From: a virus
Lineage: Duplodnaviria > Caudoviricetes
DNA: 52,374 bases
IMG/VR virus record: IMGVR_UViG_3300028364_000046
Location: 1 to 52,374 of that record
Reading direction: 5' to 3' (one strand)
Under the pieces are notes generated by a model. That model did not search any database. It was not told the DNA's origin and worked only from the letters and a program-made list of their open reading frames with translations. Shown here piece after piece: positions 19,884 to 36,923 of this stretch. Made by a program: the position numbers and the translations under genes. Each line of letters begins with the position of its first letter. Positions within the stretch are counted from its first letter, which is position 1.

Positions 19884-20879
19884 ATGCCATTCAAACCCAC
19901 CCTGTCCGCTAGTATTGACTCAGAAAACCAAATCATCCTACCAGCATACGCAAGCCCCAAGCTTGACGGCATTAGGGCTGTAGGTACTGCTACGGGCTTG
20001 CTGTCAAGAAGCCTTAAGCGTATTCCCAACATTGCCACCCAAGAAGCCTACAAGCTTGCATTAGAAACGCACCCACAGCTTGTTGGCTTAGACGGTGAAC
20101 TAACAATATCCTATACGCCCCACAGCCTGGCTTATTGGTTGGATGAAAAAGGGGCCAAACATGGAGGCATAGGAGGAGACTACAACAACATCCAATCTGT
20201 AATCATGAGCGCCAACAAGCAAGCGTTGAACGTTTGCTGGAACGTATTCGACGTATGGGATGAGGACCCCGCCAAGAGCTTCACGCAACGTTCCCAGCGA
20301 CTAAAAATGAAGCTCAACAACAATCTGATTTGCTTCTATCAAGACGACCTCCCAACCTCCCCGGTGTTCAACGTCTGCACCGTGCCTCAAACGCTTATCA
20401 CCAGCCTAGAACAACTCGAAGCATACGAAGCAAAACAGCTAGGCCTAGGGTATGAAGGTGTTATGCTTAGGAGTCCAACAGGACCCTATAAGTATGGCCG
20501 CAGTACCGTTCGACAATTTTACCTAGCCAAGTTGAAGCGCTTCCAAGACTCTGAGGCAAAAATTGTAGACTTTGTAGAGCAAGAATCCAACCTGAATGAA
20601 GCAACCATAGGTGAGCTAGGACAAACTAAGAGGAGTGCCCACAAAGCCAACAAAGTAGGCAAAAACACTTTAGGCGTACTTATAGCAGAGCACCCAACGT
20701 TTGGACAAATACGTGTTGGCACCGGTCAAGGACTCACAGCACACTTACGCAAAGAAATCTGGGACAACCAACCTAAGTATGAAGGTCAAATAATCAAATT
20801 CAAGTACCAGGCCATAGGTACACAAGACAAGCCACGACTACCAATCTTCGTTGGCTTCCGGTCACCTGAGGATATCTAG
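19884..20879 (+). CDS. lig: ATP-dependent DNA ligase
   Basis: KLDGIR adenylation motif, LDGEL, VFD, GYEGVMLR, KLKRF and OB-fold motif PRLPIFVGFR. Confidence 0.95.
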   Translation: MPFKPTLSASIDSENQIILPAYASPKLDGIRAVGTATGLLSRSLKRIPNIATQEAYKLALETHPQLVGLDGELTISYTPHSLAYWLDEKGAKHGGIGGDYNNIQSVIMSANKQALNVCWNVFDVWDEDPAKSFTQRSQRLKMKLNNNLICFYQDDLPTSPVFNVCTVPQTLITSLEQLEAYEAKQLGLGYEGVMLRSPTGPYKYGRSTVRQFYLAKLKRFQDSEAKIVDFVEQESNLNEATIGELGQTKRSAHKANKVGKNTLGVLIAEHPTFGQIRVGTGQGLTAHLRKEIWDNQPKYEGQIIKFKYQAIGTQDKPRLPIFVGFRSPEDI

Positions 20880-21025
20880 CCCAGCCTCCGCAATCCAAGC
20901 ATTCTCAAAGCAGCCCAGCCCACGCAACCCACGCATTCTCAAAGCAGCCCAGCCCAGCCTCCGCAATCCAAGCATTCTCAAAGCAGCCCAGCCCAGCCTC
21001 CGCAATCCAAGCATTCTCAAAGCAG
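20880..21025 (+). repeat. Tandem repeat, ~4 copies of a 34-39 bp unit
   Basis: cccagcctccgcaatccaagcattctcaaagcag repeated with no spacers. Confidence 0.9.
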
Positions 21026-21088
21026 CTAAGGCTACTAACAGAATGCTTTAATGACATACTTAATTAAGACACTTACAGGTTACCCAAA

Positions 21089-21786: not shown

Positions 21787-22317
21787 GTGATGAAAAGACC
21801 CTCTATAAACCAGTATCTCATGACTATGGCATTTCAGGTGGCAACAAGGGCTACGTGTGAAGAAGCCCAAGTAGGCTCCGTGCTAGTGTCCAAAGATAAC
21901 CACATCCTAGCCACGGGTTATAACGGCTCACCGGCTGGTCAGTCCGAGTGCCTAGGTAAGGCCTCCTGCAAACTGCTAAGAGACCGCGGCAAAAGTGGAG
22001 TGTACCAACTATGCCCGACCATACACGCAGAAGCCAATGCCATTTCGCAATACAGGGCAGCCTACGGCAAGCCACATGCGCCCAAAGGCTCCCGGATATA
22101 CGTAACTACGGCACCATGCTTATCGTGCCTTCAGCAGCTCCTGGCAGCTGGCGTAAATCATGTGGTTTACGGCTCTTCAAACAGCTGGCTGAGTGTAGCC
22201 CAAGATTACACAAAGTATATGCCTGATGTATACTTAGAAAAGTACTACTTGAGGGCAAACTCAAGTGCTCCTTTGCTTCTCCACTGTAAAGACCCACACA
22301 CCCACGGATGCCAATAA
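21787..22317 (+). CDS. dCMP deaminase family
   Basis: RATC..AQVG, ATGYNG, HAEANA and PCxxC zinc motifs. Confidence 0.93.
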   Translation: MMKRPSINQYLMTMAFQVATRATCEEAQVGSVLVSKDNHILATGYNGSPAGQSECLGKASCKLLRDRGKSGVYQLCPTIHAEANAISQYRAAYGKPHAPKGSRIYVTTAPCLSCLQQLLAAGVNHVVYGSSNSWLSVAQDYTKYMPDVYLEKYYLRANSSAPLLLHCKDPHTHGCQ

Positions 22318-23234
22318 TGAACCCAAATAACACTTACGAAGTCACTTCTCAAAACTTTGACGCAACATATAAAGACATTTTCAAGTACATTATGAAGTAT
22401 GGCGTGGCACACAAAGGCACAACAGCCGTTTTCAATGTGTCCTGGTCATTTCAAGGTTGGATGACACCTGTATTAGGATTACGCAAAGTGTACCTAGGCA
22501 CTCTAGTTAAAGAGCTCAACTGGATTCTTAGGGGTGAATACAACGTCCAAGCGCTTGGCAAGCAAGCTCACATCTGGGCTCCGTGGGCAGACAAGAACGG
22601 CAACCTCCAGTCTAGCTATGGCCGTTACCTGAGAAGCTTTCCAACCAACTTTACACCTAGCCCAGGAGAAGCTTGCCAAGACACCCTAGACAAGTCTCCA
22701 AGGGGCCTAGGTGGCATTGATCAGATGCAAAAGCTCTTAGAAGGACTGCTAGAAGAAACGCCTAGCCGCAGACTTCAAGCATCCCTCATGCACCCTGAAT
22801 CGCACTACTCTTCTAACCTACCACCATGCATGTCTGGCCTGGGTCTAAACTGGTTTGCCACCGAGAGAGATGGACGCAAGCTTATTGCAAACATCAAGTT
22901 CCGTTCCTCAGACTTTGGCATTGGATTCGTATTCGACATTTTGCAGTGGTACCTAGTTGTTCAAATGCTCATCCAGGAAGCCAACAAAAGTCTACCATTC
23001 AGCGAGCAATACAGCCTTGCCTCGTATACCTTTTCAGCCGACTGCATGCATGTCTATGACCAGCACCTATACAGCCTACGTGAGATGGTCACAAGGCTCA
23101 ATACACCTGCTATAGAGTGGCACGGATATTACCTAACGCTGCCTGAAAACTCTCTGGATATGACTGAGGACATTCAACTAAATATTCCTCATTACCACCC
23201 ATATGACTCAATCAAGCTTCCTCTAATCGTCTAG
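22308..23234 (+). CDS. Thymidylate-synthase-fold enzyme predicted to act on dCMP (putative dCMP methylase)
   Basis: ELNW, IWAPWA, SRR, PPC and HVY motifs of ThyA. RSSDFGIGFVFD puts Asp at the Asn177 specificity position, and PPCM replaces PPCH. Confidence 0.85.
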   Translation: MPIMNPNNTYEVTSQNFDATYKDIFKYIMKYGVAHKGTTAVFNVSWSFQGWMTPVLGLRKVYLGTLVKELNWILRGEYNVQALGKQAHIWAPWADKNGNLQSSYGRYLRSFPTNFTPSPGEACQDTLDKSPRGLGGIDQMQKLLEGLLEETPSRRLQASLMHPESHYSSNLPPCMSGLGLNWFATERDGRKLIANIKFRSSDFGIGFVFDILQWYLVVQMLIQEANKSLPFSEQYSLASYTFSADCMHVYDQHLYSLREMVTRLNTPAIEWHGYYLTLPENSLDMTEDIQLNIPHYHPYDSIKLPLIV

Positions 23235-23299
23235 CCCACTTATGGCTTACTTACGAGTAAGCCTTTAAGTATAATTAAAATACACTTACGGACAACTAA

Positions 23300-23812
23300 A
23301 TGCTTGGAATTCTTGCAACTGATGAGCGATACGGACTAGCACAAAAGGGTAAACTCCCATGGGAGTGCCCCGCGGACATGACGTTCTTTAAGACCATGAC
23401 CACAAACAGAATACTATGGGTATCTAAGAGCACATTCAACAGCTTACCTAACAGCGTCAAGAAAGACCCCAAGCGTGGCTTCAAAATCCTGACCAGCAAC
23501 CCTCAAAACGCCCATGAATACACCTTTGACCAATTCAACCCACGCCTGCTGAGTAACGACCACATCCTCATAGGTGGAACAAAGGCATACAACAAATTGC
23601 TGAGAACTTGCGCCTGTGTATTTCACACCACCATCAAAGGCACTTATGGGTGCGACACTTTCCTTATAGAAGATGCCACATTCGGCTGGTTTCCTCACTG
23701 CCTGAGGCTCATAGAGGCACCTACGTTTTCTATCGATGTATATTACAAGTTTCCCAGCTGCCTCCCACCAGACGCGCTCAGGAAAGCAGCTGACATCTCT
23801 TGGGAAGACTAG
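23300..23812 (+). CDS. folA: Dihydrofolate reductase
   Basis: GKLPW.CPADMTFFK..T, STFNSLP, LIGG and CDTF motifs. Confidence 0.9.
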   Translation: MLGILATDERYGLAQKGKLPWECPADMTFFKTMTTNRILWVSKSTFNSLPNSVKKDPKRGFKILTSNPQNAHEYTFDQFNPRLLSNDHILIGGTKAYNKLLRTCACVFHTTIKGTYGCDTFLIEDATFGWFPHCLRLIEAPTFSIDVYYKFPSCLPPDALRKAADISWED

Positions 23813-23867: not shown

Positions 23868-25610
23868 ATGAACGACTTTCAAGAGTACCTAGACAATCCC
23901 AAAATTGCCATCGTTGGTCGCTTACTAAACTACTTGAACAATCCCAACATGAAGACACTGCCGGCGTCTTGCACAATCCTTGTACCAACATTTCAAGACT
24001 CAGGCATCCGTGAGCTTATCCACTTTGTATCCAAAGCACTTAGGTGTGGCGCCGGTGTAAACGTACACCTAGACAACTTTATCCCAGCCCTGAACTACTT
24101 GGAAATGGGTGAGTGTGCCATAAGCTTGCACCCAGACCACCCCGAATACACCCCAGACATGCTCCAAGCAACTCCCTGGTCTTTCCCAGTGTCTGATAGC
24201 ATGGAAGAAGACTGCCAAGTGTGGCCTGCGCACTCAGATATTGCCCGCAAAGCAAACCTGTCAATTGAGCAAGCAATCTACCACGCTTGGTCTGCTGGTG
24301 AGGGTGGCTATGACTTGCAATTTGACCTAAGTGCTTTAAGACCACCAAACACACCTAACAGCGTTGGCATGGTTTCCTCTGGCGCACTTAGCTTCGGCGA
24401 ATGGATTAAGTCTGCGTATGAGTTTGGCAAAAAGTCAGACATTGAAAGCCTCCTGTATTTCCTAAGTAACTTCAACGGTGTACTCTTACGTGGAGGACAT
24501 TACAAAGGCGGTGCAATTACCACCTCTATGCCAGTGTGGAACAAGAGTGCCCTAGACTACCTGACCCTGCCTAAAGAAGCCCACCCATGGCTAAAGAAAG
24601 GCCTCACGCTTTCCTCAGACTACTTCGAATATGGCTTGGACGAGCTGATCATTGAGAAAGTTAACAACGGCTCTCTCTGGCTTGAAAAAGCTGTTCAACA
24701 AACCACCAACGGCTATGACTGGCTTACCTCCGTGGACACAGGACTAGACGAAAGACTTCGCTCTAATGTCTGCCGAGAAATCCAAATAACCTCTAAGGCT
24801 ACGTGTGACCTCTCCCACGGCAACCTAGGTCAAATTGCCTACTTCAATGAACTACCTGATATGCTGGTAAAGACCACACGGATGCTTTGCACACTTAAGT
24901 CTATGGGCATACAGGACACAGCAGGCATATACAAGAAGTCCTCTGAAGACAAGCAAATAGGTGTGGGTCTAATTGGCCTAAGTAACCTTCTGGCTCGCTT
25001 TCAAATCACTTACAGGGAGCACGTAGACTCACTCAACCGAGTAATCAAGATGGTTACCAAAGACAAGATAAACGATGCTTGTTATGGCTTTAGAATACTG
25101 TCTAAGCCTGAGTTTGAAACCGACAGTGACAGTCTTGCTTGGTGGATGATTATGGCCTACGTAGAAGCGTCCAAAGTGGCACGCTCCTATGGCATGGAAA
25201 GAGCGTTCTGTATTGCGCCCACAGCCAATTCTAGCTTCCGTTATACCGACCTAGAAGGCTACAGCACATCACCTGAAATCAGTCCACCCATCAGCCTGGA
25301 AATAGAACGACTTAGTGAGACTCTAGAAGACACCGATATATTCTTCTACCACCCAAATGCCGAGACTGCTGAACAGGTTGGCTTTCATACATACCAGGGC
25401 TTGGTTGAAGCCTACCAAGAGTTGTTCAATGTCACTGGGTTGGGCCACTCAATATCGTTCAATATCTGGGAGCCCATTGACTTCACATTCCTAGACTGGT
25501 TTGACAACAGCGAAGTGCTAACCACGTACTACCGTATAACCGTAGACCAGGGCTATTTGAACAAGTCCACCCAGTTCGGTGATGAAATCAAGTGTGATTG
25601 CGTAGGCTAG
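23868..25610 (+). CDS. nrdA: Class I ribonucleotide reductase alpha subunit (cyanophage small type)
   Basis: LPASC, NVCREI, QIGVGLIGL and IAPTA motifs; C-terminal CxC; no ATP cone. Confidence 0.88.
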   Translation: MNDFQEYLDNPKIAIVGRLLNYLNNPNMKTLPASCTILVPTFQDSGIRELIHFVSKALRCGAGVNVHLDNFIPALNYLEMGECAISLHPDHPEYTPDMLQATPWSFPVSDSMEEDCQVWPAHSDIARKANLSIEQAIYHAWSAGEGGYDLQFDLSALRPPNTPNSVGMVSSGALSFGEWIKSAYEFGKKSDIESLLYFLSNFNGVLLRGGHYKGGAITTSMPVWNKSALDYLTLPKEAHPWLKKGLTLSSDYFEYGLDELIIEKVNNGSLWLEKAVQQTTNGYDWLTSVDTGLDERLRSNVCREIQITSKATCDLSHGNLGQIAYFNELPDMLVKTTRMLCTLKSMGIQDTAGIYKKSSEDKQIGVGLIGLSNLLARFQITYREHVDSLNRVIKMVTKDKINDACYGFRILSKPEFETDSDSLAWWMIMAYVEASKVARSYGMERAFCIAPTANSSFRYTDLEGYSTSPEISPPISLEIERLSETLEDTDIFFYHPNAETAEQVGFHTYQGLVEAYQELFNVTGLGHSISFNIWEPIDFTFLDWFDNSEVLTTYYRITVDQGYLNKSTQFGDEIKCDCVG

Positions 25611-25687
25611 ACTTGAGTGCTAGGGTTGCCTCAGGTAGCCCTAGCCCTTTTGCCGTTACTTATATTCACATTAGCAATACCCCCACT

Positions 25688-26479
25688 ATGCCAAATACTT
25701 ACGAAGAATTCCGAGCGCTTACAGAAGCCCAACTGGTATTGCCTAGTCCCACCCCTGAGTCTGAGTTCTATTCATTCATTGGCCGCAAGTCAGGATGGCA
25801 ACCAGCCAAGTACACCCAAAGCACCTTCAAAGTTAGCCCCGTCAATACCCACGTAGCCGTTCAAAAAGCCCTGGCGCTGGCACTCGCACTTGAGATTCCC
25901 GTTGGTGAGTTTACCCTAGAGGCCAGCAAGCGTGAATTCACCGGTGAGCAGCGGTGGGCTCTCCTGGATAACTCCAAAGACGAACTGGTGCACTATGAGG
26001 CACTTAGCAATTGGGCCTCAGGTTTGAGCACAAGCCTGCCTCAAGAGTACCTAGATGAAGCACAAGCTATGTGCGAAGAGTTCTTGAGCAATGTAGAGCA
26101 CCCAGTACTCAAGGCAGGCTTTATTGAGCTGGGTATATTCTTCCCAGTGCTGTCCATCTTTCGCAAGTTTGGCACCACATCACTCAAGCTCTTGGCAAGT
26201 GATATCAGCCGCGACGAAGCAAGCCACGTGCTTACCAATTGGGCTGTTATCAAGGAGCAAGAAATTGCTTGGGATTTACCATCGTTGAACAAAGTTAGAC
26301 GTGAGGTAATATCCTGGCTTACGGAAGACATCAAATCTAGCAAATTTGGCGCAGACTTTTGGCTGGCCCAGAGTGATTCGTTAATCACCACACGCCAGGC
26401 AGAAGGACTGAAGTTTACCAAAGTAGCCCAGTATACAGCATTGTTCGAAGTGGATAACCGCTCGCTTGCTCAGTACTAA
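25688..26479 (+). CDS. nrdB: Ribonucleotide reductase beta subunit (ferritin-like)
   Basis: E...DExxH...E...DExxH ligands (ALEIP, DELVH, IELGIFF, DEASH); ATG 25688 preferred. Confidence 0.85.
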   Translation: MPNTYEEFRALTEAQLVLPSPTPESEFYSFIGRKSGWQPAKYTQSTFKVSPVNTHVAVQKALALALALEIPVGEFTLEASKREFTGEQRWALLDNSKDELVHYEALSNWASGLSTSLPQEYLDEAQAMCEEFLSNVEHPVLKAGFIELGIFFPVLSIFRKFGTTSLKLLASDISRDEASHVLTNWAVIKEQEIAWDLPSLNKVRREVISWLTEDIKSSKFGADFWLAQSDSLITTRQAEGLKFTKVAQYTALFEVDNRSLAQY

Positions 26480-26658: not shown

Positions 26659-27348
26659 ATGGCTAGTAAACTCAAGACTATCTACGTATTTGAAGGTCCT
26701 GACCGCGTTGGCAAATCTAGCCTAGCCAAAGCGTTCTCAGAAGCTATCAACGCACCTTTATTTCACTTTGGCAAACCTGACCCAGCACTTGTAGAAGAAA
26801 GAGGTTTGCAGTATCAATACGAAGACCTTACAAACATATTTTCCGACATCGTTCTTGACAGGTCCTGGGTGTCTGGTCTGTTCTATGAGATGTTCAGGCG
26901 CAACCAACCTGCAAGCCTAGACTCCGTAGTCAGCCTAGAAAACCGCCTTATGCACCATGGGTTTAATCTCCAGTACATATTCGTCAACAGACAGTGGTCT
27001 AAAGGCATAGAGAGTGACCACCTAGAAGAAGTTGAAGCGGGCTTGGGATACGGAAACATGCACATAAGGAAATTTGAGCACGTAATGTGGCCCATGTTTG
27101 TTTATAAGTTTCTCCCCTTGACAGCGGCAAATCTTCAAGTGGTACATAGCCCCGCACCATACAACCTAAAAACTTCTGTATCCAACCTAGTAAATACCCA
27201 TGAACACCGACAAGCAGTTAGACAAAGCTATGGTAAATCTAGCAAACGAATTCTTAGGATTTTTAACTCTCAGACAGAAGTCTGTCCTGGTGCTCTTATA
27301 TGGCCTTCAAGCAAGTGGCCTAACAATGACCCAAGCAGAACTTTCTAA
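26659..27348 (+). CDS. Deoxynucleoside monophosphate kinase (thymidylate-kinase-like P-loop)
   Basis: FEGPDRVGKSS P-loop and LDRSW motif. Confidence 0.85.
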   Translation: MASKLKTIYVFEGPDRVGKSSLAKAFSEAINAPLFHFGKPDPALVEERGLQYQYEDLTNIFSDIVLDRSWVSGLFYEMFRRNQPASLDSVVSLENRLMHHGFNLQYIFVNRQWSKGIESDHLEEVEAGLGYGNMHIRKFEHVMWPMFVYKFLPLTAANLQVVHSPAPYNLKTSVSNLVNTHEHRQAVRQSYGKSSKRILRIFNSQTEVCPGALIWPSSKWPNNDPSRTF

Positions 27349-34070: not shown

Positions 34071-36923
34071 ATGCAAACTAAGATACTGAGTACAAAGCCC
34101 AAAGTAAACGAACTGGGCTTTGAGATGATTTCAGACCCACTGTGGAATTACTTATTCGGCAGTGATGAAGACCGCCCTGAAATTCACAAAGTTACTCAAG
34201 CAGAAATACGGGCAAGCTTCAAGAAGTTTGATGGATACCTATTCCCACCTGACACAGTAGGGTATGAGGGATTTGACCTTGCCGTGCCTGCATTTGAGGG
34301 ACCCCTTCAAGACTACGTAAACAAGCTTGCGTCAGACAAGTGGCTACCAACTAAGAACCAGCTGCTGAAGTTTCTCAACAATGACATAAGTATATTACCT
34401 AGCTGTGATGTCGTCGTCAAGCAATCGGGGTGGACTAGGTATCAATTCGTAGGCAAAGTGAAAGAATCTTTGTTTGACTTTGACTTTGGCCATGAAGAAA
34501 AGCCCGAAGAAAGCTGGCTAATTTCTAAGGTTGCTTATCCCACTGAGGACACGCTGGTTTTTGACGTAGAAACCTTTGTAAAGCAAGGCAATGGGCCCGT
34601 GCTAGCTGTTGCTGTTTCTAATGATGCCTGGTACCTCTGGATTCATCCTGCGTTGGCCCATAACAACGTAATGTACGCTGACTGTTTGATACCCCTAGGC
34701 ACTGGCAAACTTATCTTAAACCACAACCCAAAGTTTGACAGTACACGCGTGGCTGAAACATATGACCTAAGCCTAACCGGTAGAAACATCTGGTTAGACA
34801 CTATGAGTATGCACATGGCTGTGTGTGGCATGTCCAGTAAGCAAAGAGTGCCCTACAAAGCTTACCAGTCGGGCTCTCAAACCTTTGCATCTAAGTGGGC
34901 CACACAAACTTCAGACAATTCCCTGGTTGCTGTATATAACCACCACGTGAAACCACTTAAGCCCCTTACCAAGGCAGACAAAGAAACCAGGAACATCTTT
35001 GTCCAGGCTAGTGATGTGCAAGAGTTCCGTGAATGCCTAGACGAACTGCTGGACTACAACCTGAAAGACGGTCTGTATACCTACCAGCTTGGCCAAGCGC
35101 TTGTACCTAAGTACTTCAGAAGCCAACCGTCTATCATTTCGTTTGGTGGTTCTTGTATACTTTCTAAGAGCTTTTTACCCGTACGAGACGACTGGTCTGA
35201 AAGGCTTTTTGAAATTGATAGAGTGTATTCATCTACTAAAAAGAAGCTTAAGAAGGACATAGAGGCCATTGCGCATCACTGGGCTAAGGGGTTTGCAAAC
35301 GGGAAGCTTACCAGAGAGATGATTGATAAGTGTCCTTGGAAGTCACAGTTAGACTGGACACCGGCCAAAACAGGAGCCAACAAAGGGTACCCAGCATGGT
35401 GGAGAAAAGCCAAATCCAAAGGTATATCCACTGGCTCTCGTTTAGCACCCAGACTTCTAAAGATGTGTTGGAAGGGACAGCCACTTGTTCACCACCCAAA
35501 GCTAGGATGGATGTTCAAGGCACTACCTAGCAGCCCAAGTGTGATAGATTTGCCTCAGGGAATTGTTGGATGCCTAAGTAGTTTGTTCCCGCCCGGAGCA
35601 TACCAGAAAGTGCCTCACAAGAAAGGCGACAAGAACAACTGTGGTAACCCCCTAGCTAAGGACTATATCGACGCAATCCAGAGTGGCTTACTTAGTAGTC
35701 CTAATGAGAAGGCTAAAGGCTTTCTGGAGGCAGCACGTAGCATTGCTTATTGGACTTCCATGCGCTCACGGGCAAATGACTACAAGCCCAAGCAGTGCAC
35801 GTATCCTGACGGCTCTACGGGGCTGATGGTGGAGCCTGTTCTAGCATACTTTGGCACAGCCTCTCGTAGGTGCGTAGAGCGCTTATGGCTTACTGTGAGC
35901 AGTGCCAAGTCGGTAGTAATAGGCAGCGAACTAAAAGGCATGGTCAGGCCTATTAACTGGGACAAAGAACTACCTATAAGTTCGTTCGGCAACTACGAGA
36001 TGGTGGGCTATGACTTTGACGCACAAGAGCTCAAGATTGCCTCCAGCTACGCAGACTCACTGTCCTTTGGCATATTCGGTAGCAGTCCTATGGGGTACAC
36101 TCAGCTCCTAGGTGACAAGGACAAAGGCACGGACGGCCACACCTTGCTTGCGACGTTCTTGAAGATGTCCAGAACTATTGCAAAGAACCTCAACTTCCAG
36201 ATGTTGTACTTGTCCGGGGTACTCGGGTGTGCAGGGACCATCAAAAGTCAGCGTCCGGAGCTTACTGAGGCAGAGTGCAAGAGTGTTGCCAACAAAGCCT
36301 TGAAGCTACGCCGTGGCTCAAAAGTATACGGTAAAAATGGCACATACAAATACGTAGGCGGAACTGACTCCCAAGCGTATAACTTTATGCTTCAGTTGGC
36401 CAACCGAGAGCCTCTGCCCCACAAGCTGAGACACTTACAGACAGACAAGCTACCTAGGACACCTATGTTGTCTTCTGCTATGTCTGAAGCTGTTACTGAG
36501 TCCAACTGTAGTGGCGATTACCTAACCTCAAGGGCTAACTGGACAGTGCAATCACCTGGCGCAGACCTCTTGCACACAATGCTTGTGCTAACTGACCACT
36601 TTTATACTGCCCTGGGCCTGGATGCTCAGTTTATGTTCTCTTATCACGATGAGATTTGGAACCTAGTTCACGCAAAAGATGTCAAGCAAGCTACTTGGGT
36701 GGGTCAAATATCTCACTTGCTTGCTTGGGCGTATTTCTTCCAGCGCTTGAACTTCAAAGATATGCCATACCAATACATGTTCTTCTCAGGTGTTAACGTA
36801 GACAAGGCGTTCAGGAAAGAAGTCTATGAGAGTCAAGTAACCATCAGTAATCCCACCGACGCACTCAAGCCTGGTAAAAGCTACAAACCAACTGACTTGG
36901 CACACTTGCCACAAACCCACTAA
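34071..36923 (+). CDS. Family A DNA polymerase, mitochondrial Pol-gamma-like
   Basis: Blocks FDVE, LDTMSMHMAV, PHK.G...N.G.PLAKD, GT..RR.VE..WLT.S, GSELK.MV, DFDAQEL, SRANWTVQS, HDEI and FFSGVNVDK.FRKE match POLG-specific sequence. Confidence 0.95.
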   Translation: MQTKILSTKPKVNELGFEMISDPLWNYLFGSDEDRPEIHKVTQAEIRASFKKFDGYLFPPDTVGYEGFDLAVPAFEGPLQDYVNKLASDKWLPTKNQLLKFLNNDISILPSCDVVVKQSGWTRYQFVGKVKESLFDFDFGHEEKPEESWLISKVAYPTEDTLVFDVETFVKQGNGPVLAVAVSNDAWYLWIHPALAHNNVMYADCLIPLGTGKLILNHNPKFDSTRVAETYDLSLTGRNIWLDTMSMHMAVCGMSSKQRVPYKAYQSGSQTFASKWATQTSDNSLVAVYNHHVKPLKPLTKADKETRNIFVQASDVQEFRECLDELLDYNLKDGLYTYQLGQALVPKYFRSQPSIISFGGSCILSKSFLPVRDDWSERLFEIDRVYSSTKKKLKKDIEAIAHHWAKGFANGKLTREMIDKCPWKSQLDWTPAKTGANKGYPAWWRKAKSKGISTGSRLAPRLLKMCWKGQPLVHHPKLGWMFKALPSSPSVIDLPQGIVGCLSSLFPPGAYQKVPHKKGDKNNCGNPLAKDYIDAIQSGLLSSPNEKAKGFLEAARSIAYWTSMRSRANDYKPKQCTYPDGSTGLMVEPVLAYFGTASRRCVERLWLTVSSAKSVVIGSELKGMVRPINWDKELPISSFGNYEMVGYDFDAQELKIASSYADSLSFGIFGSSPMGYTQLLGDKDKGTDGHTLLATFLKMSRTIAKNLNFQMLYLSGVLGCAGTIKSQRPELTEAECKSVANKALKLRRGSKVYGKNGTYKYVGGTDSQAYNFMLQLANREPLPHKLRHLQTDKLPRTPMLSSAMSEAVTESNCSGDYLTSRANWTVQSPGADLLHTMLVLTDHFYTALGLDAQFMFSYHDEIWNLVHAKDVKQATWVGQISHLLAWAYFFQRLNFKDMPYQYMFFSGVNVDKAFRKEVYESQVTISNPTDALKPGKSYKPTDLAHLPQTH

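What the first reader, a model, noticed from the sequence alone, without database searches (positions are those of the whole stretch)
21787..23812. Natural dCMP-methylase-type ThyA between dCMP deaminase and DHFR: a 5mC genome or a dUMP-free route to thymidylate
Seen: the ThyA homologue reads RSSDFGIGFVFD, with Asp210 (GAC 22935-22937) where E. coli ThyA has Asn177 (RSCDVFLGLPFN). It also reads PPCM (Met175, 22830-22832) where ThyA has Cys146-His147, and Gln165 is replaced by Phe. The gene overlaps the upstream dCMP deaminase and is followed by DHFR. No canonical ThyA or ThyX is visible elsewhere in the genome. Established: Asn at this position selects dUMP and Asp selects dCMP (T4 gp42 has Asp). 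ThyA N177D (L. casei N229D) is a dCMP methylase, and also mutating the His (H199) strongly improves it. Reductive methylation yields dihydrofolate and needs DHFR, whereas hydroxymethylation does not. dCMP deaminases can accept 5-methyl-dCMP. Inference: the phage makes 5m-dCMP and either (a) deaminates it straight to dTMP, reversing the usual order and bypassing dUMP, or (b) incorporates 5mC into DNA as Xanthomonas phage Xp12 does, or both.
Basis: partly seen in the sequence, partly recalled or inferred. Interest (0 to 1): 0.92.

Follow-up and report, generated by a model that had tools for sequence, protein, structure and literature searches.

The report
Phage dCMP-methylase, deaminase and DHFR module
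A lake-water phage carries a thymidylate-synthase relative whose active site is built for dCMP, next to a deaminase and a dihydrofolate reductase, the same gene set that 5-methylcytosine phages such as Xp12 use, so it is a divergent new example of a pathway already described.

Summary
The only ThyA-family gene in this 52.4-kb viral record (22308-23234) has Asp210 (GAC 22935-22937) where E. coli ThyA has Asn177. It has Met175 for His147 and Phe198 for Gln165. It overlaps the upstream dCMP-deaminase gene and is followed by DHFR. No ThyX or second ThyA was found.

Control alignments (T4 gp42, Xp12, PaMx74, RL38J1 gp166 and gp216) applied the published residue code. The enzyme reads Asp177 + Leu143 + Asp169 with a full TS-like C-terminal tail. 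That predicts a reductive dCMP C5-methylase (5mdCMP synthase). It does not fit a hydroxymethylase (Asp/Glu143, no tail) or a 5-hydroxy-dCMP synthase (Asn169).

Xp12 and the Pamexvirus phages carry the same TS-deaminase-DHFR trio. A 2024 preprint showed that Asp177 TS homologues next to deaminases make 5mdC, and that a partner deaminase converts 5mdCTP to dTTP.

What is specific here:
- a tiny, very divergent TS lineage (6 close sequences in 1.84 billion representatives);
- a cyanophage-like backbone;
- no recognisable dCTPase.

No chemistry was tested, and 5mC in the virion DNA is unproven. Verdict: new member of a known kind, moderate interest.

The parts
21787..22317 (+). dCMP/cytidine deaminase-family gene (176 aa) with zinc motifs HAE and PCxxC. 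Its stop codon overlaps the TS start. Proposed to deaminate 5-methyl-dC nucleotides to dT nucleotides; the substrate was not tested.
   Evidence: PF00383 1.7e-24 and phrog_174 2.1e-35. Best PDB match is the S. mutans dCMP deaminase 2hvv at 3.8e-15, with HAE and PC..C aligned. It is 32% identical to the Xp12 cd protein. The overlap is seen.
22308..23234 (+). ThyA-family enzyme (308 aa), predicted dCMP C5-methyltransferase (5mdCMP synthase). Key codons: Glu69 22512, Trp90 22575, Trp93 22584, Ser102 22611, Tyr104 22617, Arg154-Arg155 22767-22772, Leu171 22818, Cys174 22827, Met175 22830, Phe198 22899, Asp202 22911, Asp210 22935, His248 23049, Tyr250 23055. The C-terminal tail is ...IKLPLIV.
   Evidence: PF00303 2.9e-36. 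Alignments A2 and A4 with controls. AF2 model pLDDT 91, with canonical TS as the top Foldseek hits, TM 0.85 normalised by target. Family conservation.
23300..23812 (+). Dihydrofolate reductase (170 aa), 65 nt downstream of the TS. It would recycle the dihydrofolate that reductive methylation produces.
   Evidence: PF00186 1.4e-15 and phrog_316 1.2e-22. PDB DHFR 4m7u at 3.5e-11, with the LPW..P.D and GG motifs aligned.
23868..25610 (+). Divergent ribonucleotide reductase large-subunit-like protein (580 aa). Context: supply of deoxynucleotides.
   Evidence: PF02867 5.5e-8 over residues 298-385 only; phrog_367 2.1e-17.
25598..26479 (+). Ribonucleotide reductase small-subunit-like protein (293 aa).
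   Evidence: phrog_6799 2.1e-37; no Pfam hit at E <= 0.01.
26659..27348 (+). P-loop thymidylate-kinase-like dNMP kinase (229 aa, motif GPDRVGKSS). Candidate kinase for dTMP and 5mdCMP.
   Evidence: phrog_761 7.2e-6. Sequence. Atlas feature hits scoring 0.96-0.97 to viral thymidylate-kinase-family clusters. No Pfam or PDB sequence hit.

Best explanation
This is an Xp12-type cytosine-methylation and thymidylate module.

1. The ThyA-family enzyme binds dCMP rather than dUMP. Asp210 replaces the Asn that selects uracil. Met175 and Phe198 replace the His147 and Gln165 that support uracil binding.
2. It transfers the one-carbon unit of methylene-tetrahydrofolate to C5 and reduces it by hydride transfer, giving 5-methyl-dCMP and dihydrofolate.
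3. The adjacent DHFR regenerates tetrahydrofolate.
4. The thymidylate-kinase-like dNMP kinase and host kinases raise 5mdCMP to 5mdCTP for the phage polymerase.
5. The translationally coupled deaminase converts part of the 5-methyl-dC nucleotide pool (monophosphate or triphosphate) into dT nucleotides. One TS-family enzyme therefore supplies both 5mC and T without a dUMP-dependent thymidylate synthase.

Shown here: gene content and order, the active-site residues, the fold, and conservation in relatives. Inferred: substrate, product, the deaminase's substrate, and the presence and extent of 5mC in virion DNA.
For: Residue code with controls.
- Window: Asp at EcTS 177, Leu at 143, Asp at 169, full C-terminal tail.
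- Xp12 and PaMx74 (5mC phages): Asp, Asn, Asp, with a shorter but present C-terminus.
- T4 gp42 (hydroxymethylase): Asp, Asp, Asp, no tail.
- RL38J1 gp216 (5-hydroxy-dCMP synthase): Asp, Glu, Asn, no tail.
- E. coli ThyA and RL38J1 gp166 (canonical): Asn, Leu, Asp, with tail.

The meaning of these positions comes from PMC6400193 (passages), PMC13326640 (passages) and PMC8670742 (passages).

Other support:
- Trp93 is kept (EcTS Trp83, said to shield the active site from solvent); T4 has Val there.
- The genome has a single TS-family gene and no ThyX.
- DHFR is adjacent. Hydroxymethylation does not produce dihydrofolate (PMC6400193).
- Xp12 and PaMx74 carry the same trio, and so does AXL1 (PMC9206674).
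- In the preprint, 5 of 7 deaminase-linked Asp177 TS homologues, plus the Xp12 enzyme, made 5mdC in vivo. The linked deaminase mSCD-B5 converted 99% of 5mdCTP versus 4% of dCTP in 30 min (10.1101/2024.12.05.627091).
- The pairing appears conserved. Three TS relatives and three deaminase relatives come from clusters whose longest contigs have identical lengths: 53698, 10467 and 27119. This is indirect evidence.
- In the tree, the window sits in an all-Asp clade of 10 tips (SH-like support 0.80). That clade joins Xp12/PaMx74 in a 15-tip group of 13 Asp and 2 Asn (support 0.84).
- A kinase candidate lies nearby.
Against: - No enzymology or DNA chemistry exists for this phage. All public runs that hold it are assembled contigs, which cannot show base modification.
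- No MazG, PRA-PH, dUTPase or MazG-like domain and no homologue of the Xp12 HAD hydrolase was found. The dCTP-removing step that goes with complete substitution is therefore missing or unrecognised.
- The TS is only 20% identical to the Xp12 enzyme and 25% to E. coli ThyA. Membership of the Xp12 lineage is weakly supported.
- In the preprint, 2 of the 7 tested Asp177 enzymes did not yield 5mdC.
- The deaminase resembles ordinary cyanobacterial dCMP deaminases at 34-46% identity, and nothing in its sequence could be tied to 5mC selectivity.
- DHFR homologues were not recovered from the relatives. Only 1 other sequence was found, on a 1316-base contig.
- GATC is strongly depleted (33 observed versus 89.7 expected), so at least one C-containing site is still under selection.
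Confidence: 0.6

Rival explanations
1. Thymidylate route only. The enzyme makes 5mdCMP, but essentially all of it is deaminated to thymidine nucleotides. The virion DNA carries ordinary C or only a little 5mC. The module then serves as a dUMP-independent thymidylate pathway, for example in a host that uses ThyX.
For: No dCTPase-like gene was found, so dCTP would still compete for incorporation. The deaminase and TS genes are translationally coupled. GATC is depleted. The deaminase's more distant relatives are cyanobacterial. In the tool's control genomes, Synechococcus elongatus matched ThyX and not ThyA.
Against: The experimentally studied phages with this module that I saw cited (Xp12, PaMx74) are described as replacing C with 5mC (preprint). 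A phage polymerase would have to exclude 5mdCTP. C/G-containing 6-bp palindromes as a class are not depleted (757 observed versus 645 expected), while TTTAAA is absent (0 versus 12.4). That pattern fits cytosine shielding, but only weakly.
Confidence: 0.12
2. Conventional pathway with an odd TS. The deaminase makes dUMP from dCMP. The TS-like enzyme, despite Asp210, still methylates dUMP (or both nucleotides) to dTMP, and DHFR recycles folate, as with T4 cd, td and frd.
For: The gene trio is also the classical dTMP pathway. The enzyme is overall more TS-like than Xp12-like, with Trp83, Leu143, a full tail and 25% identity to EcTS. Top structural matches are canonical TS. The deaminase looks like a standard dCMP deaminase. 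From recall, N177D/N229D mutants keep some dUMP activity.
Against: Asp at 177 is the established dCMP selector (PMC8670742 and PMC13326640). It is invariant through the 10-tip clade. The supporting His147 and Gln165 are also replaced, as they are in the dCMP enzymes of Xp12 and T4. In the 2024 metagenomic data, deaminase-linked TS genes were found in 104 of 149 deaminase-bearing contigs predicted to be modified, versus 17 of 277 predicted to be unmodified.
Confidence: 0.15
3. dCMP hydroxymethylase. The enzyme makes 5hm-dCMP as T4 gp42 does. The deaminase could then give 5hm-dU nucleotides, for 5hmC- or 5hmU-based DNA.
For: Asp210 is shared with T4 gp42, and the Ser102-x-Tyr104 motif matches T4 Ser94-x-Tyr96. 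The deaminases in the preprint were first screened on 5hmdC, and 7 gave 5hmdU.
Against: The hydroxymethylase signature, Asp or Glu three residues before the catalytic Cys, is Leu171 here. Trp93 is kept where T4 has Val. A full C-terminal tail is present where T4 has none. Ser-x-Tyr is also present in the Xp12 methylase, so it does not discriminate. DHFR would be unnecessary. No Tet/JBP domain was found in the genome scan, and no glycosyltransferase or other modifying-enzyme family appeared among the ORFs scanned against Pfam or PHROGs, of 67 in all.
Confidence: 0.08
4. 5-hydroxy-dCMP synthase or another still-unknown TS-family chemistry.
For: The best tblastn E-value in the phage collection was to Rhizobium phage RL38J1, a phage known for 5-hydroxycytosine derivatives (PMC13326640). 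The family is very divergent.
Against: That RL38J1 hit is gp166, its canonical Asn177 TS, which sits next to a DHFR. It is not the 5hodCMP synthase gp216. The diagnostic D169N change is absent, since Asp202 is kept, and Leu replaces the Glu at 143.
Confidence: 0.03

Closest known systems
Xanthomonas phage Xp12 / Pamexvirus-type module (TS homologue making 5mdCMP, dCMP-deaminase-family gene, DHFR)
   Same: The same three gene families are adjacent. Both have Asp at EcTS 177, non-His at 147, a hydrophobic residue at 165, Asp at 169 and Ser-x-Tyr. Both have a single TS-family gene that is expected to serve both 5mC and T.
   Different: Only 20% identity. Gene order is deaminase-TS-DHFR here and TS-deaminase-DHFR in Xp12. 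Residue differences: Met versus Pro at 147, Leu versus Asn at 143, Trp versus Phe at 83. The tail here is longer and TS-like. There is no homologue of the HAD or pyrophosphohydrolase gene that precedes the Xp12 and PaMx74 TS. The virus backbone and G+C content also differ (47% versus 67-69%).
Metagenomic Asp177 TS + 5mC-selective deaminase (mSCD) pairs of Yang et al., bioRxiv 10.1101/2024.12.05.627091
   Same: The same selection criteria are met: an IMG/VR-type viral contig, PF00383 and PF00303 genes in cis, and Asp at N177. The proposed biology is the same.
   Different: Their sequences and candidate lists are in supplements I could not open. I cannot say whether this contig or its family was among those tested. 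The substrate level of this deaminase is unknown.
Canonical thymidylate synthase ThyA (E. coli, L. casei) and its N177D/N229D mutants
   Same: The fold matches (target-normalised TM 0.85). Glu58, Trp80, Trp83, Tyr94, Arg126/127, Leu143, Cys146, Arg166, Ser167, Asp169, His207, Tyr209 and the C-terminal tail are conserved. The natural sequence carries the same change as the engineered dCMP-methylase mutants.
   Different: Asn177 to Asp, His147 to Met, Gln165 to Phe, Arg21 to Lys, and Pro92 to Ser.
T4 gp42 dCMP hydroxymethylase
   Same: Asp at the selector position, Lys in place of Arg21, Ser-x-Tyr, and a non-His residue after the catalytic Cys.
   Different: Leu, not Asp, at position -3 from the Cys. 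Trp, not Val, at EcTS 83. The C-terminal tail is present. DHFR is adjacent.

Membership tests
Thymidylate synthase superfamily (PF00303) | TS fold with a catalytic Cys, an Arg-Arg pair and Arg-Ser for phosphate, Glu58, Tyr94, and His207/Tyr209 | tested here: met
   PF00303 2.9e-36. AF2 pLDDT 91 and Foldseek E 4e-21 to ThyA structures. Pattern K-E-W-W-S-Y-R-R-L-C-x-F-R-S-D-D-H-Y at EcTS 21/58/80/83/92/94/126/127/143/146/147/165/166/167/169/177/207/209 (position 147 taken).
Canonical dUMP-dependent thymidylate synthase (EC 2.1.1.45) | Asn at EcTS 177, with His147 and Gln165 supporting uracil recognition | tested here: not met
   Asp210, Met175 and Phe198.
5mdCMP synthase (dCMP methylase, Xp12 type) | Asp at EcTS 177 | tested here: met
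   Asp210 aligns with the Asp of Xp12 and PaMx74.
5mdCMP synthase (dCMP methylase, Xp12 type) | No acidic residue at EcTS 143, and Asp kept at 169 (features for hydride transfer rather than water or oxygen chemistry) | tested here: met
   Leu171 and Asp202. The controls behave as published (PMC6400193 and PMC13326640).
5mdCMP synthase (dCMP methylase, Xp12 type) | Deaminase-family gene and DHFR in cis | tested here: met
5mdCMP synthase (dCMP methylase, Xp12 type) | Common descent with the Xp12 enzyme | tested here: inconclusive
   A 15-tip group holding both has SH-like support 0.84, but it includes 2 Asn-type sequences. Identity is 20%. The tree is FastTree on 155 sequences with 266 columns.
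5mdCMP synthase (dCMP methylase, Xp12 type) | Catalysis: dCMP + CH2-THF gives 5mdCMP + DHF | not testable with these tools
   Needs an enzyme assay or in vivo LC-MS.
T4-type dCMP hydroxymethylase | Asp or Glu three residues before the catalytic Cys, and no C-terminal tail | tested here: not met
   Leu171 and the tail ...IKLPLIV are present. T4 gp42 shows Asp and no tail in the same alignment.
5-hydroxy-dCMP synthase (RB69 gp48 / RL38J1 gp216 type) | Asn at EcTS 169 (D169N) | tested here: not met
   Asp202. RL38J1 gp216 shows Asn in the same column.
5mC-selective deaminases (mSCD) | CDA-fold zinc deaminase (HAE and PCxxC motifs) encoded next to an Asp177 TS homologue | tested here: met
5mC-selective deaminases (mSCD) | Preference for 5mC over C nucleotides | not testable with these tools
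   The trait is polyphyletic and I saw no published sequence signature for it (preprint section 20). In that study, of 194 soluble candidates, 56 were active and 34 were 5mC-selective.

The most novel reading that the evidence does not exclude
A separate, TS-like lineage of natural dCMP methylases (Met147, Phe165, Leu143, Trp83, full tail) works with a cyanobacterial-type dCMP deaminase in freshwater cyanophage-like siphoviruses that have no dCTPase. In this reading the pair is mainly a dUMP-independent and ThyX-independent thymidylate pathway. 5mC is partial or absent in the DNA, rather than fully replacing C as in Xp12.
Probability: 0.13. Interest if true: 0.6.

Novelty: new member of a known kind. 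Interest (0 to 1): 0.38.

Why it matters
If the prediction holds, the Xp12-type strategy extends to a distant virus group from lake water. That strategy uses one TS-family enzyme and one deaminase to supply both 5mC and T. The group's polymerase, primase and deaminase point to cyanobacterial hosts.

The finding also offers a very divergent natural dCMP methylase whose scaffold is closer to ThyA than the Xp12 enzyme is. This is useful for working out which residues beyond Asn177 tune pyrimidine choice. Its partner deaminase is a further candidate for 5mC-selective deamination, a property already used in methylome sequencing.

The underlying principle is already published, so it does not open a new question.

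Tried and rejected
Genomic context of relatives. The search for related loci with the protein, with alignment A1 and with P0003 or P0004 returned no locus in viral contigs, metagenome contigs or genome contigs. Co-occurrence in relatives therefore rests only on matching contig lengths.

Rosetta-stone fusions. Of 10 long TS representatives scanned (chosen from 151 sequences), 4 were DHFR-TS, 1 (the Asp-type P0029) was NUMOD4-HNH-TS and 5 were TS only. None was a deaminase-TS fusion.

Sequencing runs. Nine lake-water metagenome runs were listed, all kept as contigs, with no RNA holder listed. The laid pieces were identical to the window and cannot show modification.

Site-avoidance statistics.
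- TTTAAA: 0 observed versus 12.4 expected, the lowest of all 4096 hexamers.
- AATATT: 4 versus 10.7.
- GATC: 33 versus 89.7.
- C/G-containing 6-bp palindromes pooled: 757 versus 645.
This is suggestive of cytosine shielding, but there is no control set and GATC runs against it, so I treat it as circumstantial.

CpG depletion (observed/expected 0.56) is not a 5mC-phage mark. PaMx74 gives 1.12 and the Xp12 fragment 1.01.

The relative A-HIS1 lacks the trio. The phage collection has no near-DNA match. No close TS was found there either: of the 715 records with a match, none reached 60% identity, and the 40 listed were 24-28% identical.

The RL38J1 lead was rejected. The hit was its canonical TS gp166.

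Deaminase substrate prediction was not attempted, because no usable sequence signature for 5mC selectivity is available. The supplements of the preprint, which may list this contig, are closed.

I found no paper on this particular TS lineage, and none of these three searches surfaced a paper describing a 5mC-substituted cyanophage. These searches cover only the held library.
Full report
WHAT IS THERE

The window is a whole IMG/VR viral record of 52,374 bases, estimated 93% complete. On the + strand, from about 19.9 kb, lies a replication and nucleotide-metabolism block:
- ATP-dependent DNA ligase (19884-20879);
- a 39-bp x 3.9 tandem repeat (20878-21026);
- small ORFs;
- a dCMP-deaminase-family gene (21787-22317);
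- a ThyA-family gene (22308-23234);
- DHFR (23300-23812);
- a divergent RNR pair (23868-25610 and 25598-26479);
- a P-loop thymidylate-kinase-like protein (26659-27348);
- exonuclease, primase, helicase and a polymerase-gamma-like DNA polymerase.

The polymerase's only matches in the phage collection are 11 cyanophage records at 30-34% identity. The deaminase's more distant named relatives are cyanobacterial in 14 of 15 organism-named rows. The DNA occurs in lake-water metagenome runs. A freshwater cyanophage-like siphovirus is the likely source. The host is inferred, not shown.

CHECK OF THE OBSERVATION

Every stated coordinate is right:
- Cys174 is TGC 22827-22829.
- Met175 is ATG 22830-22832.
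- Phe198 is TTC 22899-22901.
- Asp210 is GAC 22935-22937.
- The deaminase stop (TAA 22315-22317) is overlapped by the TS start.
- DHFR starts 65 nt after the TS stop.

I aligned the protein with E. coli ThyA, Xp12 TS, PaMx74 ThyA and T4 gp42, all taken from annotated records. Asp210 falls on EcTS Asn177 and on the Asp of the three dCMP enzymes. Met175 falls on His147 (Pro in Xp12, Thr in T4). Phe198 falls on Gln165 (Leu in Xp12, Met in T4).

phmmer against PDB gives the same register. It pairs the motif with the 'fdi' of the chain of entries 1njc/1njd, which I recall as the L. casei N229D mutant. PF00303 hits the genome once and ThyX not at all.

IS ASP210 A FIXED, SELECTED FEATURE?

The word-indexed search of 5.8 billion proteins found only 4 relatives, at 40-44% identity. 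A profile search of 1.84 billion representatives found 8737 TS homologues at E <= 1e-3. Only 6 sequences form the tight family; the next hit drops to 2e-49.

Asp210, Cys174, Leu171, Trp90, Trp93, Ser102, Tyr104, Asp202, His248 and Tyr250 are invariant in the five-member alignment. Among the 150 best representatives, 34 have Asp, 115 Asn and 1 a gap at this column.

In a FastTree of 155 sequences the window lies in a core clade of 6 (SH-like support 0.94). That clade sits inside an all-Asp clade of 10 (0.80). The all-Asp clade joins Xp12 and PaMx74 in a 15-tip group with 13 Asp and 2 Asn (0.84). Asp also appears in several other places in the tree. The character has therefore arisen repeatedly, and common descent with Xp12 is only weakly supported.

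WHICH CHEMISTRY?

The literature gives a residue code.
- Asn177 to Asp switches TS to dCMP. Positions 147 and 177 are the two that separate TS homologues of cytosine-modified and unmodified metagenomic contigs (PMC8670742, passages).
- In T4 dCMP hydroxymethylase an Asp three residues before the catalytic Cys (EcTS Leu143) activates the water. Val replaces EcTS Trp83, and the C-terminal tail that seals the TS active site for hydride transfer is missing (PMC6400193, passages).
- 5-hydroxy-dCMP synthases carry D169N together with L143E (PMC13326640, passages).

I checked that the code reads correctly on controls in one alignment.
- E. coli ThyA and RL38J1 gp166: Asn, Leu, Asp, with tail.
- T4 gp42: Asp, Asp, Asp, no tail.
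- RL38J1 gp216: Asp, Glu, Asn, no tail.
- Xp12 and PaMx74: Asp, Asn, Asp, with a shorter but present C-terminus.
- The window enzyme: Asp210, Leu171, Asp202, Trp93 kept, and a full TS-length tail (...IKLPLIV, against ...IKAPVAI in EcTS).

This is the 5mdCMP-synthase code on a scaffold closer to ThyA than Xp12's. The AF2 model is confident (pLDDT 91). Its best structural matches are canonical TS (M. tuberculosis and E. coli, target-normalised TM 0.85).

The Ser-x-Tyr motif that PMC6400193 lists as part of the hydroxymethylase signature is present here. It is also present in the Xp12 methylase, so it tracks dCMP use rather than hydroxylation.

CONTEXT ARGUMENT

Reductive methylation yields dihydrofolate and hydroxymethylation does not (PMC6400193). 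An apparently intact DHFR directly downstream fits a methylase.

Xp12 (TS-cd-DHFR), PaMx74 and AXL1 (PMC9206674) have the same trio. The preprint 10.1101/2024.12.05.627091 (outline, passages and section 20) reports the following:
- Deaminase genes lie within 3 kb of a TS gene in 104 of 149 deaminase-bearing contigs predicted to be modified, versus 17 of 277 predicted to be unmodified.
- 5 of 7 linked Asp177 TS genes, plus the Xp12 enzyme, gave 5mdC in vivo.
- mSCD-B5 deaminated 99% of 5mdCTP against 4% of dCTP in 30 min, with no detectable activity on dCMP or 5mdCMP.

The authors propose that such phages make dTTP by deaminating 5mdCTP. They cite old isotope-labelling data for Xp12. They also mined IMG/VR for exactly this gene pair.

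Here the pair is translationally coupled. It also appears conserved. Deaminase relatives at 56-59% identity and TS relatives at 40-42% identity come from clusters with identical longest-contig lengths: 53698, 10467 and 27119. This is indirect, because I could not fetch those contigs.

WHAT DOES NOT FIT OR IS MISSING

- No MazG, PRA-PH, dUTPase or MazG-like domain, no homologue of the Xp12 HAD hydrolase, no C5 DNA methyltransferase and no TET/JBP dioxygenase was detected. Of 67 ORFs of 60 aa or more, 25 were scanned against Pfam and 24 against PHROGs; many have no match. A dCTP-removing enzyme is therefore absent or unrecognised. This lowers confidence in complete C-to-5mC replacement.
- DHFR homologues were not recovered from the relatives (1 other sequence).
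- The deaminase cannot be assigned a substrate from sequence. The preprint calls the 5mC preference polyphyletic, and only 34 of 194 soluble candidates showed it.
- Public runs hold the phage only as contigs, so there is no direct evidence on modification.
- Word statistics are mixed. TTTAAA is the most avoided hexamer and C/G-containing palindromes are not depleted as a class, which would suit cytosine shielding. However, GATC is strongly depleted.

VERDICT

Rivals are:
- a thymidylate-only use of the same chemistry (0.12);
- a conventional dUMP pathway with an unusual TS (0.15);
- hydroxymethylation (0.08);
- other chemistry (0.03).

This is not a new principle. It is a divergent new member of the Xp12/mSCD kind of module, in a virus group and habitat where I found no such module described in the three library searches.

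Noticed in passing
window 20878-21026: Tandem repeat of a 39-bp unit, 3.9 copies, 87% matches. It lies just after the ligase gene and upstream of the nucleotide-metabolism genes. It could be iterons, an origin or a regulatory array.
   Followed up: no
whole window: TTTAAA is absent (0 versus 12.4 expected), the most under-represented of all 4096 hexamers. GATC is at 33 versus 89.7 expected and AAGG/CCTT at 200 versus 334. C/G-containing 6-bp palindromes pooled are not depleted (757 versus 645).
   Followed up: partly
whole window: Strong CpG depletion (observed/expected 0.56, and 0.49-0.62 at all three codon-position pairs), with TpG/CpA at 1.16. The 5mC phages PaMx74 and Xp12 show no such depletion (1.12 and 1.01), so it is unexplained.
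   Followed up: partly
window 23868-25610 and 25598-26479: Very divergent ribonucleotide reductase pair. The large subunit is only 580 aa and matches PF02867 over about 90 residues. The small subunit has no Pfam hit at E <= 0.01 but matches phrog_6799 at 2e-37. The two genes overlap by 13 nt.
   Followed up: no
window 21787-22317: Beyond a tight phage-like family (50-66% identity), the deaminase's nearest named relatives are cyanobacterial dCMP deaminases (14 of 15 organism-named rows, 34-46% identity). This hints at acquisition from a cyanobacterial host.
   Followed up: partly
window 34071-36923: Polymerase-gamma-like DNA polymerase (950 aa). Its only phage-collection matches are 11 cyanophage records (A-HIS1/2, S-TIM5 group, S-CBWM1, Mic1) at 30-34% identity.
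   Followed up: partly
L006 (Acaryochloris phage A-HIS1, 1-50000): A-HIS1 has an unusually high CpG observed/expected ratio of 1.89, with TpG at 0.57. This is the opposite of the window. It lacks the deaminase-TS-DHFR trio but has a DNA methylase and a deoxynucleoside kinase.
   Followed up: no
P0029 (representative protein, 447 aa): An Asp177-type TS homologue carries an N-terminal NUMOD4 + HNH endonuclease region. It may be a homing-endonuclease fusion or a merged gene call.
   Followed up: no
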